Assembly: GCA_050736715.1 (NCBI GenBank) | Contig: JBOHWK010000111.1 | Span: 1 to 59,242 of the forward strand | DNA length: 59,242 nt | Direction of reading: 5' to 3' | Source of the DNA: Candidatus Binataceae bacterium | Lineage (GTDB): Bacteria > Desulfobacterota > Binatia > Binatales > Binataceae | Part shown: one piece after another, positions 649 through 31,074 of the stretch | Position numbering within the stretch: the stretch's first letter is position 1 | Layout of the letters: each line of letters opens with the position of its first letter | The notes under the pieces: generated by a model | What the model was told of the DNA's origin: nothing | What the model saw: only the letters and a program-made list of their open reading frames with translations | The model's database searches: none | Translations under genes and position numbers: made by a program

Positions 649-1938
649 TCATTGCCGCCGCAGCGATTCGGGGCGGATCGGACGCGCCAGTGCGATCGTC
701 ACTTCCCGCACCGCGCGGGCGTCGCTGCGGGTGACGGAAATCGTCAGATCGCCCTCGGCCAATTGTTCGCCGGGTTTGGGAATATGGCCCAGCCGCTCCA
801 CCACCAATCCGCCGATCGTCGCGTATTCGTCGCCCTCCGGCAGCCCCAGCCCGAAGCGTTCGTTCAATTCCGCGATTCCCGCCCGCGCCATCACCGCGAG
901 TCGGCGCGGCCCCACGATGCGGACCAGTTCCTCGCGGAGGTCGTGCTCGTCCTCGATTTCGCCGACGATCTCCTCGAGCAAATCCTCCACCGTCAGGATG
1001 CCCGCAGCGCCGCCGTATTCGTCCACGATCGCGGCGAGATTTTCGCCCGTGCGTTGCATCGCAACCAATGCTTCGTCCAGCGGCATCGACTCGGGAAAAT
1101 AGCTGACCGGGCGCATTATCTCACTGACCGGGCGCGTAATATCGGGAGCCGAAAGGAGGTCGAAAACATGCACGACGCCGACCAGGTCGGTGATATGGCC
1201 GCGGTAAACCGGGATGCGGCTGAAGCCCTCGCGGCGCACGCTTTCGATCGCCTGGGCGATCGTGCTCTTCTCGGAGATCGCCTCGACCCGCACCAGCGGC
1301 ACCATCGCCTTGCGCACCTCGGCGCGGGAGAAGCGGAAGATGCGGCTGATCATGCGCTGTTCGGCGGGCAGAATCGCGTCGTGCACGGGGGCGGCTGCGG
1401 CGTCGGCCGGCCGCCGCCGCATCAGTTGCGCCAAATCCTCGCGCGTCAGGAATACGCTGCGGACCTCCGGCGGAACCCCGGCCAGCCGGCTCAGCCATCG
1501 CGACAGCGCCGTCTCCGCGGCGAGTACGGGCGCGAGCACACCCGCGATTATCCGCAGCGGACGCGCGGCGAGCAGCGCCGCCCGGTGCGGATTGCGGAGC
1601 GTGAGCAGCTTCGGCATCGCCTCGCCAAGGAGCAGCGTAATCGGCGTCAGAATAAAGGGGGCAAGGAATACCCAGTGCCAGGCCACATTGTGCAGGAAGC
1701 TGGTCAGCACGACGGCGGCCATTACCGTGGCAAGGTTGCTGCCGGTCAGCGTTAGGGCAAGGAGGCGATCGCGATTTTCGAGCAGCTTACCGAGCGCGCG
1801 GGCCGCCGGCTTGCCGCGCTCGCTTTCCGCACGCACCTTTAATTCATCGGCGGAAACCGTTGCGATCTCGGCGGCGGCGAAGAACGCCTGCACGAGAACG
1901 CACGCGGCGAGCACCAGAACGATCCCCTCGATACTCAT
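649..1938 (-). CDS. CNNM/CorC-HlyC family membrane protein (DUF21 + CBS pair + CorC_HlyC domain)
   Basis: Taken from internal Met MSIEGIVLVLAACVLVQAFFAAAEIA (DUF21-type TM start). CBS pair ending LTVEDLLEEIVGEIEDEHD, then a C-terminal CorC_HlyC-like segment. The start overlaps the upstream stop by 4 bp. Confidence 0.85.
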   Translation of the reverse strand: MSIEGIVLVLAACVLVQAFFAAAEIATVSADELKVRAESERGKPAARALGKLLENRDRLLALTLTGSNLATVMAAVVLTSFLHNVAWHWVFLAPFILTPITLLLGEAMPKLLTLRNPHRAALLAARPLRIIAGVLAPVLAAETALSRWLSRLAGVPPEVRSVFLTREDLAQLMRRRPADAAAAPVHDAILPAEQRMISRIFRFSRAEVRKAMVPLVRVEAISEKSTIAQAIESVRREGFSRIPVYRGHITDLVGVVHVFDLLSAPDITRPVSEIMRPVSYFPESMPLDEALVAMQRTGENLAAIVDEYGGAAGILTVEDLLEEIVGEIEDEHDLREELVRIVGPRRLAVMARAGIAELNERFGLGLPEGDEYATIGGLVVERLGHIPKPGEQLAEGDLTISVTRSDARAVREVTIALARPIRPESLRRQ

Positions 1939-3149
1939 CGCGCGAGCCTCACCAGTTCGACCGCCGCGCCACGCACGCGCTCGACAGTCGCCTCGAACTC
2001 GCCGAGTTTGAGTTTTTCCCCAACGCGCGGAACGCGGCCCAGCCGCCGCAAAATCAGGCTCGACAGCGTTTTGCCGGCGCCGGGTGCGTCGATCGCAAGC
2101 GCCGGTCCCAATTCTTTCGCCAGCCGGTCGAGCGCGATCGCTCCCGACGCGGTCCATTCGCGGTCCGAGCTGCGCGTGAGTTCGGGAACTTCCAGATCGA
2201 ATTCGTCGCGTAGTTCGCCGAATAGCTCCTCGAGCAAATCCTCGAGTGTGACCAGCCCCAGCACCTTGCCGAATTCATTGACCGCGATCGCCATTTGATA
2301 GCGCCCGCGCCGCATCTCGTCGAACAATTCGCCGAGCGCCTTGCCGGGTGGAATAAAGACCGCCGGGCGCAGGAGCCGTTCGATTCGCGGCGGCTGAGGA
2401 TCGAGCCGGCGCGCGGCCAGATCCTTGGCGTGGACGAGGCCCACGATATTGTCGGGATTGCCGCGCCAAACCGGCACGCGCGAGAAGCTCTCCTGCGCGA
2501 TCGCGGCGATTAATTGGGCGGACGGCGTGTCCGCATCGGCGGTGAACATCCGTTCCCGCGGCGTCATCACTTCCGCCGCGCGCCGCGCGCCGAAGTCGAA
2601 CACCCGATCGATCATCGCGCGCTCGGCCGGTTCGACCTGGCCGCCGGTTTCGCCCAGCCTAAGCAGCGTCTTGAATTCCGCCTCGGAGACCGGCGCCGGC
2701 GTGGGAACCGCGGCGAGCGGCGCGAATCGGCTCGCGATCGGATGCACCCCGCCCGCCAGCACGGCAAGCGGGCGGGCGGTGAGCCGCGCGAATGCGCCGG
2801 GAAAGCCGAGTGCGAAGGTCTTGGGCGTGATGTCGCACAACATCACCACGATCGCGAACATCACGGGCGCCGCCACCCACGGCCCGGCATCGCCGCCGAG
2901 CAATCCGATCAGGAAAATTGTCGCGAGGCATTCGGCGAAGATGTTGCACGCCTCGTTAAGGCCGATAACCACCACCAGCGATTCGAGCGGCCGCGCCATC
3001 AGCCGTTCCAGCGCGTCGCGCACCGGGCGACTTAACCGCTCGCGCGTATGCTCCATCCGCGCCAGCGCGAACAGCGCCGTCTCCGAGGCGGCAAGCGCCG
3101 CGCTCAGGACGATTAGAATCGCAATTGCAACCGGCAACATCACCGTCAT
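1935..3149 (-). CDS. CNNM/CorC-HlyC family membrane protein (paralog of the downstream gene)
   Basis: Start chosen at MTVMLPVAIAILIVLSAALAASETALFAL. CBS pair ending VTLEDLLEELFGELRDEFD. Same domain order as 649-1938. Confidence 0.85.
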   Translation of the reverse strand: MTVMLPVAIAILIVLSAALAASETALFALARMEHTRERLSRPVRDALERLMARPLESLVVVIGLNEACNIFAECLATIFLIGLLGGDAGPWVAAPVMFAIVVMLCDITPKTFALGFPGAFARLTARPLAVLAGGVHPIASRFAPLAAVPTPAPVSEAEFKTLLRLGETGGQVEPAERAMIDRVFDFGARRAAEVMTPRERMFTADADTPSAQLIAAIAQESFSRVPVWRGNPDNIVGLVHAKDLAARRLDPQPPRIERLLRPAVFIPPGKALGELFDEMRRGRYQMAIAVNEFGKVLGLVTLEDLLEELFGELRDEFDLEVPELTRSSDREWTASGAIALDRLAKELGPALAIDAPGAGKTLSSLILRRLGRVPRVGEKLKLGEFEATVERVRGAAVELVRLAR

Positions 3150-3297
3150 CGTTCGCCCCCGTTCCAGCGCGATTCCAGTTCGCCTTCGGCGGCGTCTGGG
3201 ATCGCGCGCCGCACTTTGTCCGCCATGGCGCACAGGATAGCATTGCGGCGAAATTGAACCTAAATTTCTGCGCGATCCGTCGCTTGCGGAGCAGCGC

Positions 3298-3327
3298 TTG
3301 ACACGCACCGGAATCTTCGATTATCTA
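3298..3327 (+). promoter_or_regulatory. Sigma70-like promoter for the 3380 exoprotein gene
   Basis: TTGACA (3298-3303), 18-nt spacer, TATCTA (3322-3327). Followed by a 5' UTR hairpin GGGGATCGGCGA...TCGCCGATTCCCC and a GGAGGA Shine-Dalgarno. Confidence 0.45.
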
Positions 3328-3379: not shown

Positions 3380-5176
3380 TTGTTTAGCACCGTTAAAGGT
3401 GCGGTGGTCGTGGCGATAGTTTTTGCCATTACCGCCGCAGTTGCGTCTGTTTCATGGGCCGGTTCTGACGGCGCCGGCGTTACCGGCGCCAAGATCCCTA
3501 AGGTCGTGAGCGTGGCGCCGAAAAAGCTCAATTTCGGCAACACGAAAAGCTGCGCAAAGCTGAAGACCAAAACCCTCAAAGTAAAGAATCTATCGAAGAC
3601 GGACCCGCTCACCCTGAGCGAAGCCATCGCCGGGATTGATGCGAGCGATTTCAATCTGACCGGCGGGACTTGCACGGGGACGCTGGCGCCGCGGACCTAC
3701 TGCACTTACGAAGTCATATTCGATCCGGAGAGCATCGGGACGCGGACAGCGACGATGACGATAACGGACAGTCCCGATACATTAAGTCCGTACGAGGTCG
3801 CCTTGATCGGGAAATCCAAAGTCGTTTGCGTGACACCCACGCCGACGGCTACGGCCACCGCGACCGTCACGCCGACCAGCGCCGTGACGCCGACGGCGGC
3901 GACTCCGACTTCCACGGCCACGCCGACGCGAACCGCCACGAGCACGCCAACCGCGGCCACGCCCACGAAGACTTCGACCGCGACCCCGACCATGACCAGG
4001 ACCGCCACGCGAACTCCCACGCCGACGGCCACTCGCACCTCGGCTCCCAGTACGACCCCGACCCCAACTGGAGTGCCCACCACGATTACGATTAGCGGGA
4101 AGGTCGTTCAGGGTTCCATCGGCGGCGGGACGGTTACCCCCAATTCGCCGGTTGCTCCGGTTGTGGGTGCGCCGGTGTGGCTAGAGGCGGTCTATATCCT
4201 GAGTCCCACCCCAACCGTCCAGCCGACCCCGACGATGCTTCCAACGCCGACGGCGGCGCCCACGGTGATTAGCTCACCGCTGTACTTGATCCAGACCACC
4301 GTGACCGATGGGTCTGGAAATTTCTCATTCACGGGTGTGCCGACTTACGGATCGCCCAATTCCTTTGTCGTGGTCACGGACTCCAACAGTCTGCCGACAG
4401 GCGGTTCGCCCTCCGATGCGACCATAACGGGACCGCTCGAACCGGCCGGACTCCTGACCGGCCTGGAAATTCCGCTGATACCCGCAACCAACAGCAGTAC
4501 CAACTCGCTGCAAGGGATGTTTTCGACCGCGGGGCTCGGCGGGCCGGGAACCGGCGATGACGTCACATTCGTTCCCGCACAGCCGGTAGTCGGCGCCATC
4601 CTGTTTCCGGGTTACTCGGAATCCGAATTGGATGTGGACGCGCTGGTGCCGCCACTGGCCGATCCCAACGGCACGACGAACGGTAGCCAGAACGGCACCG
4701 GCGGCGCGCCCTACCTGACGACGACCGCGGCCGGAACCGACTGCACGGGCGGCTGCACCGATTCATCCACCAACTGCGCCTGTTTCTCGATCGCGGCGCC
4801 CAACGGAAATCCCGTGAGCGGCGCGCCCTCGACTAATGGCACGGGTTATACCCAACCGACCCCGCCCGAGGGGTGCGAAGCAAATCCCGCTTCCTGCTAT
4901 GCGACCTATTACTGGGCGGCAACGATTGGAAGTTTTAGTCCGACTCAACTCTACGGGACCCCGGACTGCCCGAATCTAAACGCATTGGAATGTACGGGAC
5001 CCGGCACATATCTTCCGTGTTGCACCGGCCCTGGGACGGGTACCTGTTATTACCCGACCGAGCAGCCGGAGGACTTCCCATCGCCGTTCGAGCTCGTCGA
5101 GGGAAGTCCCTTTATCACGGACGTGCCCGACGCCAACCTGCCCTCCGCTGTCGGAGGCTTCAGCGAGTGCCAATGA
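3380..5176 (+). CDS. Secreted protein: signal peptide, choice-of-anchor-D/ASH-like beta-sandwich, long Thr/Pro/Ala linker, Cys-rich C-terminal region
   Basis: TTG start after GGAGGA. N-terminus MFSTVKGAVVVAIVFAITAAVASVSWA. Module LNFGNTK..LKVKNLSKTDPLTL...FNLTGGTCTGTLAPRTYCTYEVIFDP. About 80 aa of TPTPTATATATVTPT... and at least 15 Cys in the last ~150 aa. Confidence 0.75.
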   Translation: MFSTVKGAVVVAIVFAITAAVASVSWAGSDGAGVTGAKIPKVVSVAPKKLNFGNTKSCAKLKTKTLKVKNLSKTDPLTLSEAIAGIDASDFNLTGGTCTGTLAPRTYCTYEVIFDPESIGTRTATMTITDSPDTLSPYEVALIGKSKVVCVTPTPTATATATVTPTSAVTPTAATPTSTATPTRTATSTPTAATPTKTSTATPTMTRTATRTPTPTATRTSAPSTTPTPTGVPTTITISGKVVQGSIGGGTVTPNSPVAPVVGAPVWLEAVYILSPTPTVQPTPTMLPTPTAAPTVISSPLYLIQTTVTDGSGNFSFTGVPTYGSPNSFVVVTDSNSLPTGGSPSDATITGPLEPAGLLTGLEIPLIPATNSSTNSLQGMFSTAGLGGPGTGDDVTFVPAQPVVGAILFPGYSESELDVDALVPPLADPNGTTNGSQNGTGGAPYLTTTAAGTDCTGGCTDSSTNCACFSIAAPNGNPVSGAPSTNGTGYTQPTPPEGCEANPASCYATYYWAATIGSFSPTQLYGTPDCPNLNALECTGPGTYLPCCTGPGTGTCYYPTEQPEDFPSPFELVEGSPFITDVPDANLPSAVGGFSECQ

Positions 5177-5201
5177 CGATGGGCGAAGGAGGCGCGAAAG
5201 G

Positions 5202-6245
5202 TTAGGGCCGGCCGGCTCGCAGATGGTCCCAGCCCGCCAAGTGCGGCGGGTGCGCGCCATCGATCGTGAGTTGCCGGCCGCGCACGATCCGGCCGATGCG
5301 CCGCACCGGAACCCGCAACCGCCGGGTGAGTTCCGCCTCCGAATGGCCGGGGCGGAGGCAAAATAGCAATTCGTAATCCTCGCCGCCGCTCATCGCCAGC
5401 GACAAATCCCTCCCCATCGCGGCGCGATACGCCCGCGATACCGGAATCGCCGCCGCGTCAATTTCCGCGCCCACGCGCGAGCGTTCGAGGATATGGCCCA
5501 AGTCCTGAACGAGGCCGTCGCTGACATCGATTGCGGCCGGAGTTGGCGAAATCGCGGCCAGCCGCCGTCCCGCGAAGATGCGTGCGGACGGACGGAGGCA
5601 GCGGTCGATTAAATGTTTTCGCGCGGCAGCCGGAACGCGCATTTTACCCGCCAGGATGCGCCAGCCCAGCGCCGCATCGCCGAGCGTCCCCGTCACGAAA
5701 ATTTCGTCGCCCGGCCGCGCCGTATCGCGGCGCATCGCCGGCGATTCCGCATAACCGACAATCGCGATTGCGATCGAAAGGTCGCGCGCGCGCGCGATAT
5801 TCCCGCCCACGATATCGACGCTCTGCGCTTTCGCGGCGCGGCGCAATCCGGCGTAGAGGCCGTCGATCGCCGCGATTGAAATTCCCTTGCGCAAATTGAG
5901 ATTGACCACGCAGGCCGCAGGCCGCCCACCCATCGCCGCGATATCGCTCAGGCAGACCGCGAGCGCGCGCGCTCCGATTACATCGGGCCGCGCCCAGGCC
6001 AAATCGAAATGGACGCCCTCGACCATCGTGTCGATCGTGAAGAGGATCGGATGGCGCGCCGGAGCGAGGATCGCGCAATCGTCGCCGGGGCCGAGGATCG
6101 TCGCCCGTCCGGGTTTGATTCCGGCGCACAGGCGCGCGATCAATTCGAATTCGGAGGGCACAGTGGTGGTGCGGGCCGCCATTGGCAATGACTCCCGCAT
6201 TTTACCATCGTCCACCGCCGCGCGCCGGACCTGAGGCGGAGTCAC
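5202..6245 (-). CDS. thiL: Thiamine-monophosphate kinase (start uncertain: GTG 6245, ATG 6200 or ATG 6182)
   Basis: SEFELIARL...GPGDDCAIL...DTMVEGVHF...LSDIAAMGG...DIVGGN...GDEIFVTGTLGDAA matches the ThiL/PurM-like layout. GTG 6245 overlaps the kinase stop (GTGA). Confidence 0.85.
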   Translation of the reverse strand: MTPPQVRRAAVDDGKMRESLPMAARTTTVPSEFELIARLCAGIKPGRATILGPGDDCAILAPARHPILFTIDTMVEGVHFDLAWARPDVIGARALAVCLSDIAAMGGRPAACVVNLNLRKGISIAAIDGLYAGLRRAAKAQSVDIVGGNIARARDLSIAIAIVGYAESPAMRRDTARPGDEIFVTGTLGDAALGWRILAGKMRVPAAARKHLIDRCLRPSARIFAGRRLAAISPTPAAIDVSDGLVQDLGHILERSRVGAEIDAAAIPVSRAYRAAMGRDLSLAMSGGEDYELLFCLRPGHSEAELTRRLRVPVRRIGRIVRGRQLTIDGAHPPHLAGWDHLRAGRP

Positions 6246-7576
6246 TCGGAGGCGGGTTTCGCATCCGGCGCCGTGGTTCCGGCCGGCAACTCCACGGCCA
6301 GCGAAAGGCCGCGCCCACCGAGCCGCGCATCAATGTGGCCGCCCGCCGTCTCGGCCATCATGCGGGCGAGGTAAAGACCCAACCCGCCGGCGGACCGCCC
6401 GCGCCCGTCGGCCGGCCGCTCGAACAGCGATTGCATCTCCGCCGCGGTCAGTGCGGGGCCTTTGTCGGCCACGTCGATCAGGATCGCTTCGCCGTGAATC
6501 GCCGTGTGCAGGACCACCTCGCCGCCGACCATCCGGCCGATTGCGAAGGCGAGCAGGTTTTTGACGATTCGTTCGAGGTGGCGGGGGTCGAGCCGGCACC
6601 TCGGCAGGCGGGAGAATTCGGTGCGCAGGCCCACGCCGCGCCGGCGCGCCTGCATCGCGCAATCGGCGGCGACTTCGGCCAGGAGCGGATTGGGATCGAT
6701 GTCCGCCGCGATCGGCGCCAGCGCGCGCTCCTGCGCGTCGTAATAATCGAGCACGTTGCCGACCACCAGGTCCATCCGCCACGCCGTCGCGCCGATTCGG
6801 GCGAGGACTTCGGCGCGCTCGCGGTCGGTGATGGTTTCCTCCTCCAGGAGGTTGGCGTAACCGCTGAGCGCGGCCGCCGGGCTGCGGATATCGTGCGACA
6901 TCGTGGAGATTTGCCCCTGGCGAAAGCGGGCGGCCGCTTCCAAGTCCCGGACCTGCCCGGCCAGGCGCTGGCGATAGCGATCGATCAGGAACGACGTGCA
7001 GATCGCAAACAGCGTGACGCCCAGCAATCCGACCCAGCGGTAGGCATCGAAAGGGCCGGGGATCGGAACCAGCAGATTTGCGATCAGATAGCCGAACACC
7101 GCCATCGCGCCGATTATCAATTGCGAGCGCGGTCCCCAGGTAATAAAGCCCGCCGTCACAATCGGGAACAGGATTATCACGACGAAGCGCGATTCGGGAT
7201 TGCGGGTGAAATGGCTGGCCGCGGTGACGGCGGCAAATAGAAAAGCGAAATACGAGAGCGTCCAGAACCTTACGTGGCGCTTGAACGAATCCGTCCAGAG
7301 CAGCCCCAGAAACCCGCAACTGGCGAGGATCAGCGTCCAGCGGATCGCCATCACCGCGCCGGCGGCGTCCGGCCCTCCCTCCGCCAAGTTGTACACCACC
7401 TGCGCCACGACCATCAGCAGCGCGAGCGTGCCGGCGAGCTTCAACACGCCGATCGATTCGTCGTCGTCGGGAGTCCATGCGCCCGGCGCGGGCGAATCGG
7501 CGGCGGTGGAATCCGCCGGCTGTCCACCCAGCGCGAAACCGTGCCCGATCGATTTCTCGTCAACGGCGGACGGCAT
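6242..7576 (-). CDS. Membrane sensor histidine kinase (orphan; no adjacent response regulator)
   Basis: Multi-TM N-terminal half. H-box MSHDIRSPAAALSGYANLL. HATPase_c G-box GGLGLYLARMMAETAGG. Confidence 0.85.
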   Translation of the reverse strand: MPSAVDEKSIGHGFALGGQPADSTAADSPAPGAWTPDDDESIGVLKLAGTLALLMVVAQVVYNLAEGGPDAAGAVMAIRWTLILASCGFLGLLWTDSFKRHVRFWTLSYFAFLFAAVTAASHFTRNPESRFVVIILFPIVTAGFITWGPRSQLIIGAMAVFGYLIANLLVPIPGPFDAYRWVGLLGVTLFAICTSFLIDRYRQRLAGQVRDLEAAARFRQGQISTMSHDIRSPAAALSGYANLLEEETITDRERAEVLARIGATAWRMDLVVGNVLDYYDAQERALAPIAADIDPNPLLAEVAADCAMQARRRGVGLRTEFSRLPRCRLDPRHLERIVKNLLAFAIGRMVGGEVVLHTAIHGEAILIDVADKGPALTAAEMQSLFERPADGRGRSAGGLGLYLARMMAETAGGHIDARLGGRGLSLAVELPAGTTAPDAKPASE

Positions 7577-8759
7577 TCAAGGCTCCTTCGATCGCGTTCA
7601 TGGCGAAATCGATCTCGCCGGCCGAAATCGTGAGCGGCGGCGCGATTCGCACCACCGCCTCGGCATTCAACGTCCAGTTTATCACCACGCCGCGCGCAAG
7701 GGTTTCGGCAACAAACCGATGGGCCGTTTTCGCGTCGTGAAATTCCATCCCGATTAGCAGGCCGATTCCGCGCACCGCGGCAATTTCGGGCGCGTTCAAG
7801 CCGCGCAGTTTCCGCATTATGGAAGCCCCCGCCTCCACGGCGCGCGCGGGCAGGCGGTCCCGGACAATGACGTTGAACACCGCCATCCCCGCCGCGCACG
7901 ACAGCGGATTGCCGCCGAAGGTAGTGATATGCCCCAGCGGCGGGTCATGCGAAAGCACGCCGATTACCTCGTCGCGTCCGCAGAAGGCTCCCAGCGGCAG
8001 TCCGCCGCCGAGCGCCTTCGCCAGCACAATTATATCCGGCACAACTTCCGAATGCTCCATCGCGAATAGGCGCCCCGTCCGGCCCAGCCCCGTCAGCACT
8101 TCGTCGAAAATCAGCAGCGCGCGCATGTGATCGCATCGTTCGCGCAGGGCCTGAAGGAAGCCGGGAGGCGGGATGCGCACGCCGCCCTCGGCCTGCACCG
8201 GCTCGACTACCACGGCCGCGATCGAATCGTCGATCGCGCCAAGCGCCGCCGCGTTACCGTAGGGGAGACGAAGCACCGGGCCGGGCAACGGCTCGAACGG
8301 CTCGCGGAAAGCCGGATTCCCGGCGAGCGCGAGCGCGCCCATCGTGTCGCCGTGGTAAGCCCCGTCGAAAGCGGCGAACGCCGTCCGCCCGGTGTGCTTG
8401 CGGGCCACCTTGAGCGCGCCCTCGATCGCCTCTGCGCCGCTGTTGGTGAAATAGACGCTCGCAAGCGCCGGCGGCAGCATCCGGGCGATCAGAGCGGCGT
8501 ACCGCTCCTGGCTCTCGATTGAGTATTCGCCGTACACCATGACGTGCAGATGGCGCCGCAATTGCGCCTCGATCGCGGCGAGCACTTCGGGATTTACATG
8601 GCCGAGCGCGCTGACTCCGATTCCAGCGATAAAATCGAGATAGCGGCGGCCGCCGCGCGCGATTAGCCAACTGCCCTCGGCGCGGTCGATTTCCAGGCCG
8701 ATCGGATGCTTCGAAGTCGGCGCCAGATGGGGCCGGAAAAGACCGCGCACTTCGCTCAT
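7560..8759 (-). CDS. Class-III (ArgD/GabT-like) PLP aminotransferase
   Basis: Start at MSEVRGLF (ATGA overlap with the LuxC-like stop). Motifs FIAGIGVSALGH, FTNSGAEAIEGALK, LIFDEVLTGLGRTG, IIVLAKALGGGLPLGA (PLP lysine). Confidence 0.85.
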   Translation of the reverse strand: MSEVRGLFRPHLAPTSKHPIGLEIDRAEGSWLIARGGRRYLDFIAGIGVSALGHVNPEVLAAIEAQLRRHLHVMVYGEYSIESQERYAALIARMLPPALASVYFTNSGAEAIEGALKVARKHTGRTAFAAFDGAYHGDTMGALALAGNPAFREPFEPLPGPVLRLPYGNAAALGAIDDSIAAVVVEPVQAEGGVRIPPPGFLQALRERCDHMRALLIFDEVLTGLGRTGRLFAMEHSEVVPDIIVLAKALGGGLPLGAFCGRDEVIGVLSHDPPLGHITTFGGNPLSCAAGMAVFNVIVRDRLPARAVEAGASIMRKLRGLNAPEIAAVRGIGLLIGMEFHDAKTAHRFVAETLARGVVINWTLNAEAVVRIAPPLTISAGEIDFAMNAIEGALNAVRR

Positions 8760-10009
8760 AACGCCATTCCCATCGAATCGAGGAACGCGCCGTCGCCGTG
8801 CCGCCAATCGAGCGGCGGCGATTGCATCGCGCCCGCCGCGCATACATGCGAGGCGCCGAGCGCGCGCGCAATCGCGGCGATTTCGGCGCACTCCGGCCCG
8901 TTCCCGACGATCGCGAACGCTTCGAGGCGGCCGGCAACCGGCGCCAGCCGTTCGCGCAGTTCGGAAAGATCCCGCACAGCACTGACATATACGGTCCGAA
9001 AGCCGGGCGACACCGTGAATTGCGCCGCCGGATCGGAAATTACCGTCCAGTCGAGGCGCGGCCCTTCCCACAGCTTAATCGGCTCTCCGCCGATCCCGCG
9101 CCATCGCGCCACCTCGCGGGCATGGCGAATCGCGGCGGCATCTTCCAGCGCGAGCGCGGCCGGCGGCGGCATCGAGCGGGTGAGCCGATCGAACGCTGCG
9201 GCGATGCGCGACGCGAAATCGAGTGCCGCGCCGGAATCGCCGCCAACTACGAACACCTGATGCGGCGACAGGCAGCCCAACTGCTCGAACAGCGCCGCAT
9301 CGCGCGCGGACGATCCGGCAATCTCGTCGAGCGCGGCGGAATCGAGCTCATCCGCGACAACCGCGGCGGCGCTCACGCGGCTGGGAAATCCGATTAGCCG
9401 GGGCGCGCCGGCAAGCGCGGCAATCGTGGCATCGCCGCCATACGCAACGATCGCATCGCATGAGGAGATTAGCGCGCCGGTCAAATCGGTCCGGGACCGG
9501 TTCCAGTTGAGCACGGCGATGCGCTCGCCCACGGCGGGATCGCACTCGGCAATCGTGCGCGCAAATTCAGCGAAGAAGACCGGCTCCGCCGACGCGGTCT
9601 TGATTGCCGCCGCCGCACCCGCGATTAGCGCAATCGCGATTTCATGGAGACCCGCGCCGGCGACGTTCCCCGCCACGATGAATCCGATCGCGTTGGGACG
9701 CGCGGTATCGCCGGCGGGCGCAACTCGCGCCGCCATCGCGAGGAGCGCGTCGCGCGTAAACGGCGCGAGCAGCGCATCGATCGAGGCGTCAAGCAATGCC
9801 GGCGAAAAGCCCGTCCGCCGCGCGATTTGCGCGATCGCGGCGCGCCGGGCCGGAAAGCCGCCCTCGCGCCATCGCTCGAATGCGCGCGCCAGCGCCTCGG
9901 CGCGCCGTTCGGGCGTTGAATTTTCGGTTCGCGCGGCGCGCACGCGGGCGGCAATTGCGGCGACCGCGGCAGCCGATAGTTCGAGAAATTTTCCCGCCGC
10001 GGCATTCAT
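8756..10009 (-). CDS. LuxC-family acyl-CoA/acyl-protein reductase (ALDH-like)
   Basis: Length and layout of PF05893-type proteins. Candidate catalytic Cys in FEQLGCLSPHQVFVV. It is 7 bp downstream of the LuxE-like gene. Confidence 0.7.
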   Translation of the reverse strand: MNAAAGKFLELSAAAVAAIAARVRAARTENSTPERRAEALARAFERWREGGFPARRAAIAQIARRTGFSPALLDASIDALLAPFTRDALLAMAARVAPAGDTARPNAIGFIVAGNVAGAGLHEIAIALIAGAAAAIKTASAEPVFFAEFARTIAECDPAVGERIAVLNWNRSRTDLTGALISSCDAIVAYGGDATIAALAGAPRLIGFPSRVSAAAVVADELDSAALDEIAGSSARDAALFEQLGCLSPHQVFVVGGDSGAALDFASRIAAAFDRLTRSMPPPAALALEDAAAIRHAREVARWRGIGGEPIKLWEGPRLDWTVISDPAAQFTVSPGFRTVYVSAVRDLSELRERLAPVAGRLEAFAIVGNGPECAEIAAIARALGASHVCAAGAMQSPPLDWRHGDGAFLDSMGMAL

Positions 10010-10016
10010 GCGATCG

Positions 10017-11162
10017 TCATTCGCCCGCGGCCGCGAATTGCGCGATTCCGAGCGCGCATCCGCGCGGCGGTCCCGCCGCGGCGCGTCCGAGCAGGCGGAC
10101 TCGGTCCCGATCGGCGACGCCGTAATCTTCGGTCAGCACCGCGGACACCGAGCCAACATTGGCCAGATCGAAGAACGAGAGCAGCCCGAGTTCGCCGTCC
10201 GGCAGGGGTTCGAGGCCGGCCGGATCGCGCACGATCGCGCGCATCCATGGCGGCGCGACCTTGAAGCGATCGTCCTCGCGCGGCGCGCCGGGGGTGTTGA
10301 ACGGGGTTGCGTCGTAGAGTTGCGAGCACAGTTCCGTCATCCCATATTCGTTGATGACCATTTCCGGCGCGACGTTAAGGATTTCCTTCGCGCCGCGCAG
10401 CAATTCCAATCTGGTCATCGGCGCCGCCTGACCCTTCGCGCCGCCGGTGTCCATGATTCGCGAGCCTGACGCGAGCGGAATTTTTTCGCCGCGCTCGCGC
10501 AAATAATCGAACAGCGCGCGAATCGCGGCGGTCGTGCCGAGAATGCCGGCCGGTTCGCCGCGCGCCGCCGTCCCGGCCAGAAATCGCGCCGCCGCCGCCG
10601 TATCGACGCCTGCGCGCGTCGCGGCCGCGCAGACCGCGCCGCTCCCGAATTCCTCTATCGCCCAGCCAATCATTGCCGCCAGTGACGATTCCGGCATCGC
10701 ATCGCCCGCCGGATGCAACGCCAGCATCGCGCTCCTCCGGGCATCGGGATAAAGCATTGAGCGCAGGTGCATTATCGCCGATGCACGGTAAATTTCCGGA
10801 TGCGGGACGACGTGGCGGCCACGCCGATCCTTCCCCCGCGTCGTGCCGCTGGTGAGAAAACTCAATTTCGCGGCGGCGCCGCCGTCACCGCCTGAAAGAT
10901 CGGCGAACTTGAACGCGGCCGCCGCAACCGCCGGAATCTCAGCGACGCTGGGTATGCCATCCGCGCCGATTCCGCGCTCGAGGCAAAAGCGGCGATAAGC
11001 CGGGACGGCATCGAATTGATGCCGAAAGACCGCGAGCGCGAGTCCCTCGAATGAATCCGGCCGCGGGTTGTGGATAAAGGAAAGAACCTGCTCGTAGATG
11101 GCCATCGGCGGGGGCGCATGGCGCCCGACGCCAACGATGATGGCATCGCGGGCAGCTTCCAT
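10017..11162 (-). CDS. LuxE-family acyl-protein synthetase (adenylate-forming)
   Basis: By recall, aligns block-by-block with Vibrio LuxE: IPAVAAAAFKFADL / FLTSGTTRGKDRRGRH / MDTGGAKG / PPWMRAIVRDPAGLEPLPDGELGLLSFFD / RGCAL. Confidence 0.8.
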   Translation of the reverse strand: MEAARDAIIVGVGRHAPPPMAIYEQVLSFIHNPRPDSFEGLALAVFRHQFDAVPAYRRFCLERGIGADGIPSVAEIPAVAAAAFKFADLSGGDGGAAAKLSFLTSGTTRGKDRRGRHVVPHPEIYRASAIMHLRSMLYPDARRSAMLALHPAGDAMPESSLAAMIGWAIEEFGSGAVCAAATRAGVDTAAAARFLAGTAARGEPAGILGTTAAIRALFDYLRERGEKIPLASGSRIMDTGGAKGQAAPMTRLELLRGAKEILNVAPEMVINEYGMTELCSQLYDATPFNTPGAPREDDRFKVAPPWMRAIVRDPAGLEPLPDGELGLLSFFDLANVGSVSAVLTEDYGVADRDRVRLLGRAAAGPPRGCALGIAQFAAAGE

Positions 11163-11410
11163 TCAATGCCGCCGGATGCCGCGCATCGCCATGCGGGGAG
11201 ATTTACCGGCATTTACGCGGACTTGGAATTATCATAGGCTTAGTGAGACGGTTGGGAGACCGCGACGGCAAGCGAGCCGATAGCGGGGCCACAGCGTCGC
11301 CCAATGGAGAAACGGCGATGAGCGGGCGGTGTGGGTTGTAACCGCTTTGCGTCGCGGTCGTATATCTGCTAGTTAGTTCAACCATTGATCGGTGCTAGGG
11401 GCGTGGCCAG

Positions 11411-11824
11411 ATGAAAAAATTCGTAGCGGGTGTGATGATGGGGTTCATGGCGAGTTGCGCGCTTGCATTCGCAACGGCGGAGACGAGCCACAACGGCAAC
11501 TTCTGGGTCCGCCTGAATCATTCCGCCAAGGACGGTTACGTGATCGGCTATGCCGACGCGATGCGGGTGAGCGTAACCAAGCTTGAGTACTTGAACGGCG
11601 CAGCCGATCTCTTCCACTGGAAAGGCGCGCGCAAGATCGTCCATGAACTGGCCAAACAATTGTCGATGAACGAGCTCACTCCCCAGCGGGCCGTCAAGCA
11701 ACTCAATCAATTGTACTCGAACGACAAGTACAGCGAGTTGGACGTCGGCCAGGCCATTCAGGCACTGGCGATGCGCGCGCGCGAGACGGCGATTCCCGAA
11801 ACGCCCGCCAAAACCTCCAAGTAA
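11411..11824 (+). CDS. Small secreted hypothetical protein
   Basis: ATG start, signal peptide MKKFVAGVMMGFMASCALAFA, visibly lower GC than its flanks, own terminator downstream. Confidence 0.6.
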   Translation: MKKFVAGVMMGFMASCALAFATAETSHNGNFWVRLNHSAKDGYVIGYADAMRVSVTKLEYLNGAADLFHWKGARKIVHELAKQLSMNELTPQRAVKQLNQLYSNDKYSELDVGQAIQALAMRARETAIPETPAKTSK

Positions 11825-11839
11825 CTCCGAACCGAATTG

Positions 11840-11880
11840 CGGCGGCGGTCCTCCTCAGCGGGAGCGCCGCCGTTTTTTTT
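11840..11880 (+). terminator. Rho-independent terminator
   Basis: CGGCGGCG...CGCCGCCG stem (11840-11872) followed by T8 (11873-11880). Confidence 0.85.
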
Positions 11881-11968
11881 CGCGGCGAACGCCGAGCGGA
11901 TGCCGCTCGCGCCGAATGCGCTTGAAAGCGCGCGGCCGCCGACTTAGCTTAATTCGCGGAGCCGATTC

Positions 11969-12877
11969 GTGGACGCCCCCCCATCTTTGCTCGCCAAAAC
12001 CACCCGCGCGATCGTGGGCGTGCATTCGAGCATCCCGCCGGAGCACGTGTCGGTCGCGATCGGCTTGGGCACGGATCGGCGCGGCACCGGCACGATCGTC
12101 AGCCCCGACGGTTTGATCCTGACCGCGCACTACCTCCTGTTAGGCGCGCAACAGGCGATCGTGACGCTGCCGGGCGGCGAACAAACGGAGGCGAAGATTG
12201 TGGGCCGGGATTACGGCACCGGACTGGGCTTGCTCAAGATCGCCGGGGCGCGGTTGCCGTGCGTCGAGGTAATCGCGTCGGACCGCTGCGCCACCGGACA
12301 GGAGGTGTTCACCGTCTCGTCGCTCGGCGGGGAGAAGCGCTGCGCCGATTGCGGCGTGATCACCTACCTGGGTGCGTTCGACGCGGTGTGGGAGTTCGTG
12401 CTGGAGCGATGCGTCTGCGTGACGGCGCCCTCGCTCGGCATCGGTCTCAGCGGCGGTCCGATTTGCGACACGCAGGGACGCGCGATCGGCGTCGCGTACC
12501 TGAACTTCGCCGACTTGGGCCGCGCGATCCTAGGCATTCCGGGAGAATGCTTCCTCGCCGCGCGCGACGAATTGATCGAGCACGGGCGGCGCGTGAGCGC
12601 CCCGCCGCGCGCATGGCTGGGCGTGCTGTCCTACACGATGCACGAGCACGTGGTGATCGCGGGCGTGATGCCGGGGACGCCGGGCGAGAAGGCCGGATTG
12701 CAGCAGGGCGATCTGGTGCTGGAGCTCGACGGCTGCGAGGTGAGCGAGCGGCGCGCGCTCTACGACGCGGTGCGCAAGCATCGCCCCGGCGACGCGATCG
12801 CGCTCAAGCTCCTGCGCAACAACCGCGCGGTCGATCTCGTGGCCGCGGCCGGCCGCGCGGAGGATTACTTCGCGTAA
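11969..12877 (+). CDS. Trypsin-like (S1C/HtrA-type) serine protease with C-terminal PDZ domain; no obvious signal peptide
   Basis: His motif GLILTAHYLL, Ser motif GLSGGPICD, PDZ segment GVMPGTPGEKAGLQQGDLVLELDG. GTG start. Confidence 0.75.
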   Translation: MDAPPSLLAKTTRAIVGVHSSIPPEHVSVAIGLGTDRRGTGTIVSPDGLILTAHYLLLGAQQAIVTLPGGEQTEAKIVGRDYGTGLGLLKIAGARLPCVEVIASDRCATGQEVFTVSSLGGEKRCADCGVITYLGAFDAVWEFVLERCVCVTAPSLGIGLSGGPICDTQGRAIGVAYLNFADLGRAILGIPGECFLAARDELIEHGRRVSAPPRAWLGVLSYTMHEHVVIAGVMPGTPGEKAGLQQGDLVLELDGCEVSERRALYDAVRKHRPGDAIALKLLRNNRAVDLVAAAGRAEDYFA

Positions 12878-14337: not shown

Positions 14338-14413
14338 TCCCCGGTAGCTCAGTCGGTAGAGCAGACGGCTGTTAACCGTCGGGTCGCTGGTTCGAATCCG
14401 GCCCGGGGAGCCA
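14338..14413 (+). tRNA. tRNA-Asn (anticodon GTT), CCA encoded
   Basis: Acceptor TCCCCGG/CCGGGGA. D-arm GCTC-AGTCGGTA-GAGC. Anticodon stem GACGG/CCGTC with loop CTGTTAA. T-arm GCTGG-TTCGAAT-CCGGC. Then G-CCA. Confidence 0.95.
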
Positions 14414-14580: not shown

Positions 14581-15522
14581 TCACTCTGCGCCCTTCATTA
14601 CCTTGATCACTCCGATTAGCGCCGGCCCAATAATCACCGATATCATCGCTGGCAAGACAAAGACCACCAGCGGGATCATCATTTTGACCGACGCCTTCTG
14701 TGCGTCTTCTTCCGCGCGCAAACGCCGCCGCATCCGCAACGCATCGGAACTGGAGCGCAATGCCGGGCCGATCTGAGAGCCGAGTTGCTCGCTCTGGACC
14801 AGGGTGGCGGCAAGCGGTTTAATGTCTTCGACGGCGGTCCGATCCGCAAGCGCGCGCACCGCCTGGCCGAGGGTCGCACCTGACGAGATGTCGGCCGAAA
14901 CCAAGCCGAGTTCGGTGCCGATAACCTGTCCTTGCCGCTCGCATTCCGTGCCGACAATTCTGATTGCTTCATACAATCCCAAGCCGGCTTCGACGCACAC
15001 CACCAACAAGTCAAGAACGTCAGAGAGCTGGCTCGATATTTTTTGCTGCCGGGCGCGGGCACGGCGCGCAAGCACGAGTTGCGGGAGTAGGTATCCGAGT
15101 ACCGCTCCCGCCAGAGCGAACAGGAGCGGCTGGCTGGTATTCGAATGCATAACCAAGCCCACTGCCAACCCTGCCACTCCGAACACGATGGTTAACCCAA
15201 AGCGAATAACCTGAAAGGTGACCGCCGAGCTTGATTTCAGATAGCCTGCCTCTGCCAGCGTCTGGGATAGCTTTTCGCCCTCCGGAGTCCCGGCTTTGGG
15301 CGCGGGAACCCGCTTGGCGGCCCATTTGAATACCGTATTCATCAAGTTTTCGTCAACGACGACGCCGCCTTCGAACGCCCCCTGCGAAGCGCGCACCTTG
15401 ACCGCCAAATCGGCAAACCGTTCGTCGACCGTCTGATTGTTACGGGAGAAGGCCATAACCAGGGCCACGATAGCGGCACCGATCAGACAGAACACCGACC
15501 CTGAAAGCATGACCAGGCTCAT
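14581..15522 (-). CDS. tadC: Tad pilus inner-membrane platform protein TadC (T2SS-F family)
   Basis: T2SSF-type repeat with terminal TM helices. Last gene of the tad operon. Confidence 0.85.
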   Translation of the reverse strand: MSLVMLSGSVFCLIGAAIVALVMAFSRNNQTVDERFADLAVKVRASQGAFEGGVVVDENLMNTVFKWAAKRVPAPKAGTPEGEKLSQTLAEAGYLKSSSAVTFQVIRFGLTIVFGVAGLAVGLVMHSNTSQPLLFALAGAVLGYLLPQLVLARRARARQQKISSQLSDVLDLLVVCVEAGLGLYEAIRIVGTECERQGQVIGTELGLVSADISSGATLGQAVRALADRTAVEDIKPLAATLVQSEQLGSQIGPALRSSSDALRMRRRLRAEEDAQKASVKMMIPLVVFVLPAMISVIIGPALIGVIKVMKGAE

Positions 15523-15523
15523 A

Positions 15524-17859: not shown

Positions 17860-17867
17860 CGATCACC

Positions 17868-19100: not shown

Positions 19101-19138
19101 TCCTCCAAACTAACCCTGGATCGTTAATCCAATATCCC

Positions 19139-21016: not shown

Positions 21017-21046
21017 CGTCCTACCCTGCCTCCTCCCCCGCTTCCT

Positions 21047-25838: not shown

Positions 25839-25847
25839 GCGATCGCA

Positions 25848-26675: not shown

Positions 26676-26691
26676 GACGAATCAGGACCGG

Positions 26692-28050: not shown

Positions 28051-28065
28051 TCGGCGGAGCCGCCG

Positions 28066-30550: not shown

Positions 30551-30558
30551 ATTGACGC

Positions 30559-31011: not shown

Positions 31012-31074
31012 ACAGCATGCGGCAGTTCAAAACGGGAATTGCCGCCTGTATGATCGAGTTGAAGGGACCGCCCG

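What the first reader, a model, noticed from the sequence alone, without database searches (positions are those of the whole stretch)
7560..11162. LuxE-LuxC-aminotransferase operon: a predicted carboxylate to aldehyde to amine module in a non-lux context
The three genes are tightly coupled: a 7-bp gap between the first two, then an ATGA overlap. The LuxE-like product keeps the blocks I recall from Vibrio LuxE (TSGTT.G, TGG.KG, PPW...DP...P...G..GL). The LuxC-like product keeps an ALDH-type Cys context (LGCLSPHQ). In lux operons LuxE and LuxC form a fatty-acid reductase that yields an aldehyde. Here no luxA, luxB or luxD is present, and a class-III (omega-type) aminotransferase follows directly. 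The chemical logic (activate a carboxylate, reduce it to an aldehyde, transaminate to a primary amine) parallels ArgB/ArgC/ArgD and LysZ/LysY/LysJ, but with unrelated activation and reduction enzymes. I know of no characterised pathway with this composition. The product could be a fatty amine, an amino-lipid head group or a diamine-type metabolite.
Basis: inference. Interest (0 to 1): 0.7.

Follow-up and report, generated by a model that had tools for sequence, protein, structure and literature searches.

The report
Conserved LuxE–LuxC–aminotransferase amine-forming operon
Three tightly coupled genes in a soil bacterium of the class Binatia, also found together in several other little-studied phyla, most likely turn a carboxylic acid into a primary amine by an enzyme combination that nobody has characterised; the product is unknown.

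Summary
On the minus strand lie a LuxE-like acyl-protein synthetase (11162-10017), a LuxC-like thioester reductase (10009-8756) and a class-III aminotransferase (8759-7560). A 7-bp gap separates the first two, and an ATGA overlap joins the last two. All catalytic residues known from the Photobacterium LuxC-LuxE structure are kept.

The linkage is not a local accident. In 80 species-level Binatia genomes the aminotransferase follows LuxC in 76 of 76 assessable loci, usually with the same 4-nt overlap, while the flanking genes vary. The three genes also sit together, in other orders, in Methylomirabilales (NC10), Nitrospiria and further lineages. Searching from the aminotransferase side leads back to LuxE-LuxC.

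The aminotransferase is not a standard ArgD. It keeps the PLP lysine and the Glu/Arg pair used for glutamate/2-oxoglutarate. But the arginine that binds the distal carboxylate in ArgD, OAT and GabT is an invariant Asp.

Best reading: R-COOH to R-CHO to R-CH2NH2, where R lacks that carboxylate. The substrate is unknown. The chemical logic is known (TabE/TabA, PigE, TamH); this enzyme composition is not. I rate it a new variant of a known kind, of moderate interest.

The parts
10017..11162 (-). LuxE-like acyl-protein synthetase (381 aa). It is an adenylate-forming enzyme without the ANL C-terminal subdomain and carries a C-terminal swinging Cys.
   Evidence: PF04443 4e-14 over residues 39-375. 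PDB 7xc6_E (LuxE) is the only solved hit. Lys243 (codon 10434-10436), Arg360 and Cys369 (codon 10056-10058) correspond to PpLuxE K238, R355 and C364 in the motif TRxxKGCxLS. All three are invariant in 82 LuxE-like sequences.
8756..10009 (-). LuxC-like acyl-thioester reductase (417 aa, ALDH fold) with catalytic Cys246 (codon 9272-9274).
   Evidence: PF05893 1.2e-44. Cys246 aligns with the catalytic Cys of 7xc6_A. The AlphaFold model (pLDDT 90.3) has 7xc6_A as its best PDB match, TM 0.79, ahead of generic ALDHs at 0.54-0.71. The motif Q-x-G-C-L-S-P is invariant or nearly so.
7560..8759 (-). Class-III (omega-type) PLP aminotransferase (399 aa) of a distinct 'HGD' clade. Key residues: Lys248 (codon 8016-8018), Glu191, Asp219, Arg371; Asp138 (codon 8346-8348) replaces the ArgD/OAT/GabT arginine.
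   Evidence: PF00202 3e-102. It lies below all NCBIfam equivalog cut-offs. Alignment with E. coli ArgD, GabT, PatA and BioA. Asp is invariant in 78/78 Binatia copies, in 5/5 LuxCE-linked copies from other lineages, and in 118/120 best profile hits.
11163..11410 (.). Divergent intergenic region upstream of luxE; presumed promoter/5' UTR.
   Evidence: No Rfam family at E<=1. No sigma-70 consensus and no internal minus-strand terminator in 5000-12000.
11411..11824 (+). Divergently transcribed 137-aa secreted protein (signal peptide, no Pfam family). It is a lineage-specific neighbour and probably not part of the module.
   Evidence: Present upstream in 69/71 assessable Binatia loci. It has no homologue next to the trio in other lineages and no family hit.
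6242..7576 (-). Orphan membrane histidine kinase (six predicted TM segments, HisKA + HATPase_c) directly downstream. It is a frequent but not constant neighbour; any role is uncertain.
   Evidence: Pfam. It follows the AT in 59/71 Binatia loci and is absent from the trio loci of other lineages.

Best explanation
This is a self-contained three-enzyme module that converts a free carboxylic acid into a primary amine. Step 1: the LuxE-like enzyme adenylates R-COOH with ATP and moves the acyl group onto its own C-terminal Cys369. Step 2: that flexible tail hands the acyl group to Cys246 of the LuxC-like reductase, which reduces the thioester with NAD(P)H to the aldehyde R-CHO. Step 3: the translationally coupled class-III aminotransferase uses glutamate as amino donor and converts R-CHO to R-CH2-NH2 plus 2-oxoglutarate. 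The R group does not carry the distal carboxylate typical of ArgD, OAT or GabT substrates, so it is neutral or possibly cationic; its identity is unknown. What is shown: gene order, coupling, family membership, retention of every catalytic residue, and cross-phylum co-localisation in both search directions. What is inferred: each chemical step, the direction, the amino donor and the nature of R.
For: Anatomy and coupling. LuxE-like: PF04443, and K243/R360/C369 are invariant and match the residues proven essential in PpLuxE. LuxC-like: PF05893, catalytic Cys aligned and invariant, fold closest to 7XC6_A. LuxE-LuxC fusion proteins exist in the same clade. AT: Lys248, Glu191, Arg371 and Asp219 are conserved, with Asp138 in place of Arg. 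Linkage within Binatia: AT after LuxC 76/76 and LuxE before LuxC 72/73, while HK (59/71), ThiL (46/69) and the protease (41/62) vary. The one exception is an IS insertion. Linkage outside that clade, with permuted order: NC10 AT-LuxE-LuxC (L086, L099); Nitrospiria LuxE-LuxC-AT (L096); others (L087-L090, L100, L103, L106, L110). Reciprocal test from the AT side: HGD-type ATs have LuxE/LuxC next door in 5/5 assessable metagenome loci and in 2/2 look-ups. About 50 YHG[SN]T sister-clade loci and about 20 FHGRT (ArgD-type) loci have none. Related LuxE-LuxC pairs are instead joined to an SDR or ADH, which shows that the aldehyde consumer is the exchangeable part.
Against: There is no biochemical evidence for any step, and the substrate is unknown. 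No carrier protein, thioesterase (LuxD) or amine-consuming enzyme is conserved next to the trio, so source and fate are open. In two sub-lineages the AT lies about 2 kb from LuxC, with unrelated genes between them (L087, L089, L179). I could not check whether Binatia genomes hold a separate canonical argD. Neighbour hints on the type of R conflict: an SCP2 lipid-carrier domain in L088, against LysE-type and CNNM/PaeA-like exporters and Asp138, which point to a cationic product.
Confidence: 0.65

Rival explanations
1. Lipid variant of the same logic: the substrate is a fatty or other aliphatic acid and the product is a long-chain primary amine (a membrane constituent, signal or precursor), as in TabE/TabA or TamH.
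For: Bona fide LuxE/LuxC act on myristate. A LuxC-like reductase plus an omega-transaminase makes dodecylamine in Streptomyces. An SCP2 lipid-carrier gene follows the AT in L088. The AT has a hydrophobic residue (L/I/M) where ArgD and GabT have Gln, as in BioA and omega-TA enzymes. A 6-TM histidine kinase often follows in Binatia.
Against: The window LuxC lacks about 30 C-terminal residues, the segment that in PpLuxC helps build the >40 A hydrophobic cleft (lengths and alignment). There is no LuxD, ACP or lipid-assembly gene nearby. An invariant acidic Asp138 in the substrate site is not what a purely hydrophobic pocket needs. Related LuxE-LuxC pairs sit with NMT1-type ABC importers for small polar solutes.
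Confidence: 0.28
2. Diamine/polyamine variant: an omega-amino acid (beta-alanine, GABA, 5-aminovalerate) or other cationic acid is reduced to an aminoaldehyde and transaminated to a diamine. This would be a PatA-type reaction run in the synthetic direction.
For: The best solved relative of the AT is E. coli putrescine aminotransferase (1.5e-83). Asp138 replaces the carboxylate-binding Arg and could pair with an ammonium group; it is invariant. The trio is single-copy and clade-wide among housekeeping genes. Two CNNM-family proteins with weak PaeA (polyamine exporter) similarity follow in Binatia, and a LysE-family exporter is nearby in another lineage.
Against: PatA itself has Lys, not Asp, at that position. 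The exporter hints are family-level only and far below cut-offs. Aminoaldehydes cyclise readily. No natural pathway of this kind is known.
Confidence: 0.22
3. Amino-acid semialdehyde route: LuxE-LuxC replaces ArgB/ArgC, ProB/ProA or LysZ/LysY, and the AT acts as an ArgD/OAT/LysJ to make (acetyl)ornithine or lysine.
For: The best NCBIfam matches of the AT are ArgD, LysJ and OAT models. The trio sits in a housekeeping neighbourhood and is highly conserved (AT median 69% identity). ProA is also an ALDH-superfamily thioester/acyl-phosphate reductase.
Against: The Arg that binds the substrate alpha-carboxylate in ArgD, GabT and the four nearest solved enzymes is Asp in every member. Scores are below all ArgD/LysJ/OAT cut-offs (356 vs 457; 345 vs 410). 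ArgD-type (FHGRT) relatives are never next to LuxCE.
Confidence: 0.06
4. No functional link: the aminotransferase is an independent enzyme that merely shares an operon with a LuxE-LuxC aldehyde (or alcohol) producing pair, or the set works catabolically (amine to aldehyde to acid).
For: Other housekeeping genes of unrelated function (ThiL, CNNM) are also syntenic in Binatia. The AT is 2 kb away in some lineages.
Against: Adjacency survives gene-order permutation across phyla and holds in both search directions, whereas ThiL, HK and protease adjacency does not. The 4-nt LuxC/AT overlap is conserved. LuxC-type enzymes lack the hydrolytic Glu, and LuxE consumes ATP, so a catabolic direction has no precedent.
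Confidence: 0.07

Closest known systems
LuxC-LuxE fatty acid reductase of luminous bacteria (Photobacterium phosphoreum, PDB 7XC6)
   Same: The two protein families are the same (PF04443, PF05893). The LuxE Lys/Arg pair and C-terminal Cys are kept, as is the LuxC catalytic Cys. The genes are adjacent and coupled. The predicted LuxC fold is closest to 7XC6_A.
   Different: Identity is only about 18%, and scores are far below the NCBIfam equivalog cut-offs (48 vs 550; 51 vs 750). There is no luxA, luxB or luxD. LuxC is about 70 residues shorter and lacks the C-terminal oligomerisation/cleft segment. The aldehyde is passed to an aminotransferase, not to luciferase.
TabE/TabA of tambjamine BE-18591 biosynthesis (Streptomyces albus; bioRxiv 10.1101/2025.08.11.669332)
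   Same: A stand-alone LuxC-related ALDH-type thioester reductase makes an aldehyde, which a class-III omega-transaminase converts to a primary amine (dodecylamine).
   Different: In that pathway the thioester comes from an acyl carrier protein (TabQ) inside a secondary-metabolite cluster, not from a LuxE-type synthetase acting on a free acid. Sequence relatedness to the window proteins was not tested. Here there is no biosynthetic gene cluster around the trio.
PigE (prodigiosin) and TamH (tambjamine YP1) reductase-aminotransferase fusion proteins
   Same: They follow the same two-step logic, thioester/aldehyde to amine, using a class-III aminotransferase domain. PigE is among the better AT matches (289 bits; 4PPM 5e-61).
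   Different: Their reductase is an SDR-type thioester reductase domain fused to the AT, not an ALDH-type LuxC. They are dedicated to pigment pathways and acyl-carrier-bound substrates.
ArgB/ArgC/ArgD and LysZ/LysY/LysJ
   Same: They share the formal sequence activate carboxylate, reduce to aldehyde, transaminate. The AT is overall most similar to the ArgD/LysJ family.
   Different: Their activation is by a kinase and their reduction by a GAPDH-type enzyme; both are unrelated to LuxE/LuxC. The AT lacks the carboxylate-binding Arg (Asp138) and fails all family cut-offs.
Uncharacterised LuxE-LuxC pairs joined to SDR/ADH and ABC transporters (Azospirillum and Pantoea megaplasmids, L098), and LuxC/LuxE in Aeromonas flagellin glycosylation islands (PMC7874193)
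   Same: They have the same LuxE-LuxC core in a non-luminous context (about 30% identity), with a single downstream aldehyde-consuming enzyme.
   Different: There the partner is a dehydrogenase (presumably alcohol-forming) or sugar-modifying enzymes. No class-III aminotransferase is present.

Membership tests
LuxE acyl-protein synthetase family (PF04443) | Significant match to the family model over its full length | tested here: met
   52.7 bits against a cut-off of 24.9; residues 39-375 match model positions 39-388 of 391.
LuxE acyl-protein synthetase family (PF04443) | Catalytic Lys in the GGxxK loop and the Arg of the Lys/Arg pair (PpLuxE K238, R355) | tested here: met
   K243 in TGGAKG and R360 are invariant in 82 sequences.
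LuxE acyl-protein synthetase family (PF04443) | Short C-terminal tail with the acyl-accepting Cys (TRxxKGCxLS) instead of the ANL C-terminal subdomain | tested here: met
   The motif GR...RGCALG has Cys369 12 residues from the end of a 381-aa protein; the Cys is invariant.
LuxE acyl-protein synthetase family (PF04443) | ATP-dependent self-acylation and acyl transfer to LuxC | not testable with these tools
   Needs biochemistry.
Bioluminescence LuxE / LuxC orthologues (NCBIfam NF052244, NF052251) | Score above the equivalog cut-off; presence of luxAB(D) | tested here: not met
   48.1 against 550 and 50.7 against 750. There is no luxA, luxB or luxD in the window.
LuxC acyl-CoA/acyl-protein reductase family (PF05893) | Family model match and ALDH-type fold closest to LuxC | tested here: met
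   153 bits against a cut-off of 21. In the fold search 7xc6_A ranks first, TM 0.79.
LuxC acyl-CoA/acyl-protein reductase family (PF05893) | Catalytic acyl-accepting Cys (PpLuxC Cys296) | tested here: met
   Cys246 aligns with it and is invariant in three alignments.
LuxC acyl-CoA/acyl-protein reductase family (PF05893) | Loss of the ALDH hydrolytic Glu/Asn triad residues | not tested
   This would need a structure-based alignment with ALDHs.
LuxC acyl-CoA/acyl-protein reductase family (PF05893) | C-terminal oligomerisation segment (P460-P488) that completes the long hydrophobic cleft of luminous LuxC | tested here: not met
   The window protein ends about 30 residues earlier relative to 7xc6_A: query residue 352 aligns with chain residue 382, in proteins of 417 and 477 residues.
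Class-III aminotransferases (PF00202) | Family match, PLP Lys, PLP-N1 Asp | tested here: met
   342.7 bits. Lys248 and Asp219 align with GabT K268 and D239.
2-oxoglutarate/glutamate-dependent subgroup (ArgD/OAT/GabT/PatA type) | Glu/Arg switch pair (GabT E211, R398) | tested here: met
   Glu191 and Arg371 are conserved in all copies.
Acetylornithine aminotransferase ArgD (also OAT, GabT, LysJ) | Arg in the HGR(T/S) motif that binds the substrate's distal carboxylate (GabT R141); score above the family cut-off | tested here: not met
   Asp138 (YHGDT) occupies the position in the window, in 78/78 Binatia copies, in 5/5 other linked copies and in 118/120 profile hits. The four nearest solved enzymes all have Arg. 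NF002874 scores 356 against 457 and TIGR00707 scores 345 against 410.
Putrescine aminotransferase PatA/YgjG | Score above the equivalog cut-off; long N-terminal extension; Lys at the HG(K)S position | tested here: not met
   329 against 612. The query starts at PatA residue about 73. It has Asp, not Lys.

The most novel reading that the evidence does not exclude
The trio is a previously unrecognised primary-metabolic route in Binatia, Methylomirabilota, Nitrospirota and relatives. It would make a cationic amine, for example a diamine or polyamine from an omega-amino acid or another small acid, by ATP-dependent carboxylate reduction plus transamination. The route would be defined by a new aminotransferase subfamily (HGD/LHxMVYGE) whose specificity switch is the Arg-to-Asp change.
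Probability: 0.2. Interest if true: 0.8.

Novelty: new variant of a known kind. Interest (0 to 1): 0.52.

Why it matters
LuxE-LuxC pairs are widespread outside luminous bacteria, yet essentially none has an assigned role. Here the pair is locked to its own aminotransferase clade in hundreds of genomes of abundant but uncultured soil, peat and sediment lineages (Binatia, NC10, Nitrospiria). This marks an unknown amine as a conserved product of their metabolism. If confirmed, three things would follow. About 350 or more species-level genomes would gain a function for three 'generic' annotations (acyl-CoA reductase, long-chain fatty acid-CoA ligase, aspartate aminotransferase family protein). Biocatalysis would gain a compact, CoA- and carrier-independent natural acid-to-amine cassette, an alternative to CAR plus omega-transaminase. 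Class-III aminotransferases would gain a testable specificity determinant (Arg to Asp at the HGR position).

Tried and rejected
1. Family-wide LuxC alignments (A1, A3) were too diverse for the pattern-based locus scans, and both calls failed. I used the Binatia-clade alignment A2 and the aminotransferase alignment A4 instead.
2. A riboswitch upstream of luxE could have named the ligand, but there is no Rfam hit. The promoter/terminator scan was uninformative.
3. I asked whether the divergent 137-aa ORF is part of the system. It is conserved only in Binatia and unrelated to the small divergent ORFs of other lineages, so I rejected it as a core part.
4. I looked for functional hints in the sister aminotransferase clade (YHG[SN]T). 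It matches no equivalog and has no conserved neighbours, so this was a dead end.
5. HemL reading: the window has hemA, hemC, hemD and hemB but no hemL. I rejected this because the AT matches ArgD/PatA-type models and HemL is not among its top hits.
6. Luciferase nearby: the LLM at 33111-34301 is not LuxA/B.
7. I could not test whether this is 'the genome's only ArgD'.
8. Literature searches for the trio, YgjG specificity and Binatota metabolism failed from then on because of tool time-outs. The roles of GabT R141/R398/E211 and OAT R180 therefore rest on my knowledge of the published structures.

Full report
**1. Observation**

The finding's coordinates match three minus-strand ORFs exactly:
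- 11162..10017, 381 aa
- 10009..8756, 417 aa
- 8759..7560, 399 aa, counted from the ATG that overlaps the preceding stop

The sequence shows the TGA of the first gene, then 7 bases (cgatcgc), then the ATG of the second. The junction between the second and third genes is ATGA.

Pfam assigns the three genes to LuxE (PF04443, 4e-14), LuxC (PF05893, 1.2e-44) and Aminotran_3 (PF00202, 3.2e-102). Each of the three families occurs only once in the window.

By the names attached to the closest LuxC homologues, the organism belongs to the Binatia (Candidatus Binatus/Binataceae).

**2. Are the enzymes competent?**

The only solved relatives of the first two proteins are the two chains of the Photobacterium phosphoreum LuxC-LuxE complex, 7XC6. 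The paper on that structure (PMC9157457) names the essential residues:
- LuxE: Lys238 in a GGGWK loop, Arg355, and the acyl-accepting Cys364 in a flexible C-terminal motif TRxxKGCxLS
- LuxC: Cys296

The window LuxE-like protein has Lys243 (TGGAKG), Arg360 and Cys369 (GR...RGCALG, 12 residues from the C-terminus). All three are invariant in 82 LuxE-like sequences from the loci I collected.

Cys246 of the LuxC-like protein aligns with the catalytic Cys of 7xc6_A. It is invariant in alignments of 47, 19 and 50 homologues.

An AlphaFold model of the LuxC-like protein (pLDDT 90.3) finds 7xc6_A as its best PDB match (TM 0.79), ahead of generic aldehyde dehydrogenases.

Both proteins score far below NCBI's equivalog cut-offs for luminescence LuxE and LuxC. 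They are members of the families, not orthologues of the lux genes.

The LuxC-like protein is about 30 residues shorter at the C-terminus. In PpLuxC that segment (P460-P488) helps form the long hydrophobic cleft. LuxE-LuxC fusion proteins occur in the same clade.

**3. Is the aminotransferase really linked?**

A scan of one genome per GTDB species, using a Binatia-clade LuxC alignment, found 350 relatives. The best 80 are all Binatia-type MAGs.

| Neighbour in these 80 loci | Present / assessable |
|---|---|
| AT directly after LuxC | 76/76 |
| LuxE before LuxC | 72/73 |
| Histidine kinase downstream | 59/71 |
| ThiL downstream | 46/69 |
| Trypsin-PDZ protease upstream | 41/62 |

- The single locus without LuxE has an IS5-like transposase inserted there.
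- The estimated LuxC-stop to AT-start distance is -4 nt in 57 of 79 loci, and between -8 and +7 in all but one.
- Median identities to the window proteins are 55% for LuxE, 51% for LuxC and 69% for the AT.

The trio therefore persists while its surroundings change.

A search of 1.84 billion cluster representatives (clustered) separates two groups:
- a Binatia clade at >=43% identity to the window LuxC
- a broad second tier at <=37%

Context look-ups in the second tier again show a class-III aminotransferase beside LuxE-LuxC, with other gene orders:

| Locus | Lineage | Arrangement |
|---|---|---|
| L086 | Methylomirabilales (NC10) | AT, 645 bp, LuxE, LuxC |
| L096 | Nitrospiria | LuxE-LuxC-AT, tightly packed |
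| L088 | not named | LuxE-LuxC-AT-SCP2 |
| L090 | not named | LuxE-LuxC-AT next to panB/folD |
| L087, L089 | not named | LuxE-LuxC, about 2 kb, AT |

L091 was not informative because it lies at a contig end.

L098 carries a different variant: an ADH-LuxE fusion, LuxC and an ABC transporter. This resembles the LuxE-LuxC-(ABC)-SDR sets on Azospirillum and Pantoea megaplasmids.

**4. The reciprocal test**

I scanned metagenome contigs from the aminotransferase side (alignment A4) and classified the 80 closest relatives by one active-site motif.

| AT type | Loci | LuxE/LuxC adjacent? |
|---|---|---|
| HGD | 7 | Yes, in all 5 with enough flank (L099, L100, L103, L106, L110) |
| YHG[SN]T sister clade | about 50 | None |
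| FHGRT (ArgD type) | about 20 | None |

Two further look-ups that started from HGD-type aminotransferases on 9.2-Mb and 5.6-Mb contigs also landed next to LuxE-LuxC.

Of the 120 best database hits to the AT profile:
- 118 have the Asp.
- All 120 have the motif LHxMVYGE.
- Named sources include Methylomirabilota, Nitrospiria, 'Thermodesulfobacteriota', 'Deltaproteobacteria' and 'Desulfurellaceae' MAGs.
- NCBI calls them only 'aspartate aminotransferase family protein'.

**5. What kind of aminotransferase?**

Overall it is most similar to ArgD, LysJ and putrescine aminotransferases, but it falls below every curated cut-off.

I aligned it with E. coli ArgD, GabT, PatA and BioA, taken from NC_000913.3.
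- Residues kept: the PLP lysine (Lys248), the PLP-N1 aspartate (Asp219), and the Glu/Arg pair (Glu191, Arg371) equivalent to GabT E211/R398. In this subgroup that pair handles glutamate/2-oxoglutarate; this role rests on my knowledge of the GabT and OAT structures.
- Residue changed: the arginine of the HGR(T/S) motif (GabT R141, OAT R180). It binds the distal carboxylate of GABA, ornithine and acetylornithine, again from my knowledge of the published structures. Here it is Asp138.

This Asp is invariant in 78/78 Binatia copies and in all linked copies elsewhere. The four most similar solved enzymes in this segment all have Arg. PatA has Lys and BioA has Asp. The Gln of DEVQTG is replaced by Leu/Ile/Met, as in BioA and omega-transaminases.

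Conclusions:
- The enzyme is not a standard ArgD/OAT/GabT.
- It probably uses glutamate as the amino donor.
- Its aldehyde substrate lacks the usual distal carboxylate. The acidic side chain hints at, but does not prove, a cationic group on the substrate.

**6. Mechanism proposed**

- LuxE-like: R-COOH + ATP gives R-CO-AMP, then R-CO-S-Cys369.
- The tail swings into LuxC: R-CO-S-Cys246 + NAD(P)H gives R-CHO.
- AT: R-CHO + Glu gives R-CH2NH2 + 2-oxoglutarate.

Translational coupling of LuxC and the AT would keep the reactive aldehyde from accumulating. All chemical steps are inferred from homology and context.

Hints about R conflict:
- Lipid-like: an SCP2 neighbour in one lineage, and the fatty-acid precedent of Lux and TabE/TabA.
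- Small or cationic: Asp138; the shorter LuxC; NMT1-type ABC importers beside related LuxE-LuxC pairs; CNNM/PaeA-like and LysE-type exporters nearby. All of these are weak.

**7. Comparison with what is known, and novelty**

The logic 'thioester reduction then transamination' is established. Examples are TabE (LuxC-related) plus TabA making dodecylamine, and TamH (bioRxiv 10.1101/2025.08.11.669332). PigE is a further case, by its NCBIfam name and my own knowledge, and engineered CAR plus omega-TA cascades are another (own knowledge).

Non-lux LuxC/LuxE pairs have been noticed but not characterised, for example in Aeromonas flagellin glycosylation islands (PMC7874193).

In the searches that worked, I found no described system that joins a LuxE-type synthetase, a LuxC-type reductase and a dedicated class-III aminotransferase. 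I also found no description of the HGD aminotransferase clade. Later literature searches failed for technical reasons.

I therefore class this as a new variant of a known kind. The module is real, conserved and uncharacterised. Its chemistry is predictable in outline and its product is unknown.

**8. Verdict**

- Observation: confirmed.
- Interpretation: supported as far as computation can go.
- Confidence in the acid-to-aldehyde-to-amine model: about 0.65.
- Substrate class: open, split between aliphatic/lipid and cationic small acid. The ArgD-like reading is unlikely.
- Interest: moderate, 0.52.

Noticed in passing
window 33111-34301 (+): A luciferase-like monooxygenase (Bac_luciferase, PF00296) lies 22 kb from the luxE/luxC-like genes. 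It is a generic LLM-class oxidoreductase; the LuxA model scores 65 bits against a cut-off of 600. It is not a luciferase partner.
   Followed up: yes
window 25137-32055 (+): Tetrapyrrole cluster: siroheme synthase N-domain protein, CcsA/HemX-like protein, HemA, HemC, a fused CobA-HemD (571-aa ORF) and HemB. No HemL (also a class-III fold enzyme) is in the cluster or elsewhere in the window.
   Followed up: partly
window 14581-22165 (-), and tRNA-Asn at 14338-14413 (+): A complete Tad/Flp-type pilus assembly block (two TadB/C-like T2SSF proteins, CpaF ATPase, CpaE-like ParA ATPase, CpaC secretin, RcpC/CpaB) lies next to the window's only tRNA gene.
   Followed up: no
window 6242-7576 (-): An orphan histidine kinase with about six predicted transmembrane segments and no periplasmic domain; no response regulator is nearby. 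Its longest ORF overlaps the AT stop by 17 nt. It follows the AT in 59/71 Binatia loci but not in other lineages. Whether it senses the product of the trio is open.
   Followed up: partly
window 649-3308 (-): Two tandem CNNM/CorC-family membrane proteins (CBS + CorC_HlyC) with weak similarity to the polyamine exporter PaeA and to GldE. They are syntenic with the trio in many Binatia.
   Followed up: no
window 11411-11824 (+): A 137-aa secreted protein with no family assignment. It is divergently transcribed from luxE, is conserved at that position in 69/71 Binatia loci, and is absent elsewhere.
   Followed up: yes
L024 5111-6223: In one Binatia genome an IS5-like transposase sits where LuxE, the 137-aa ORF and the protease normally lie. 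LuxC-AT is left without an adjacent LuxE.
   Followed up: yes
L098 5842-9563; L004, L005: Alcohol-type variants of the module. L098 has a Zn-ADH fused to LuxE, followed by LuxC and an NMT1-type ABC transporter. The Azospirillum and Pantoea megaplasmids have LuxE-LuxC with an SDR (plus an ABC transporter in Azospirillum). All are uncharacterised.
   Followed up: partly
P0134, P0139, P0143 (proteins); L110 3-2150: Single polypeptides fuse LuxE and LuxC (706-821 aa) within the same clade as the window LuxC.
   Followed up: partly
L105-L156 (metagenome loci): A large uncharacterised sister clade of class-III aminotransferases (YHG[SN]T at the specificity position, sharing the LHxMVYGE motif, 40-48% identical). 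It matches no NCBIfam equivalog and has no conserved gene neighbours.
   Followed up: partly
window 48152-51277 (+) and 3380-5176 (+): A 1041-aa NHL/beta-propeller repeat protein and a 598-aa choice-of-anchor-D protein. Both are large predicted surface or secreted proteins of unknown role.
   Followed up: no
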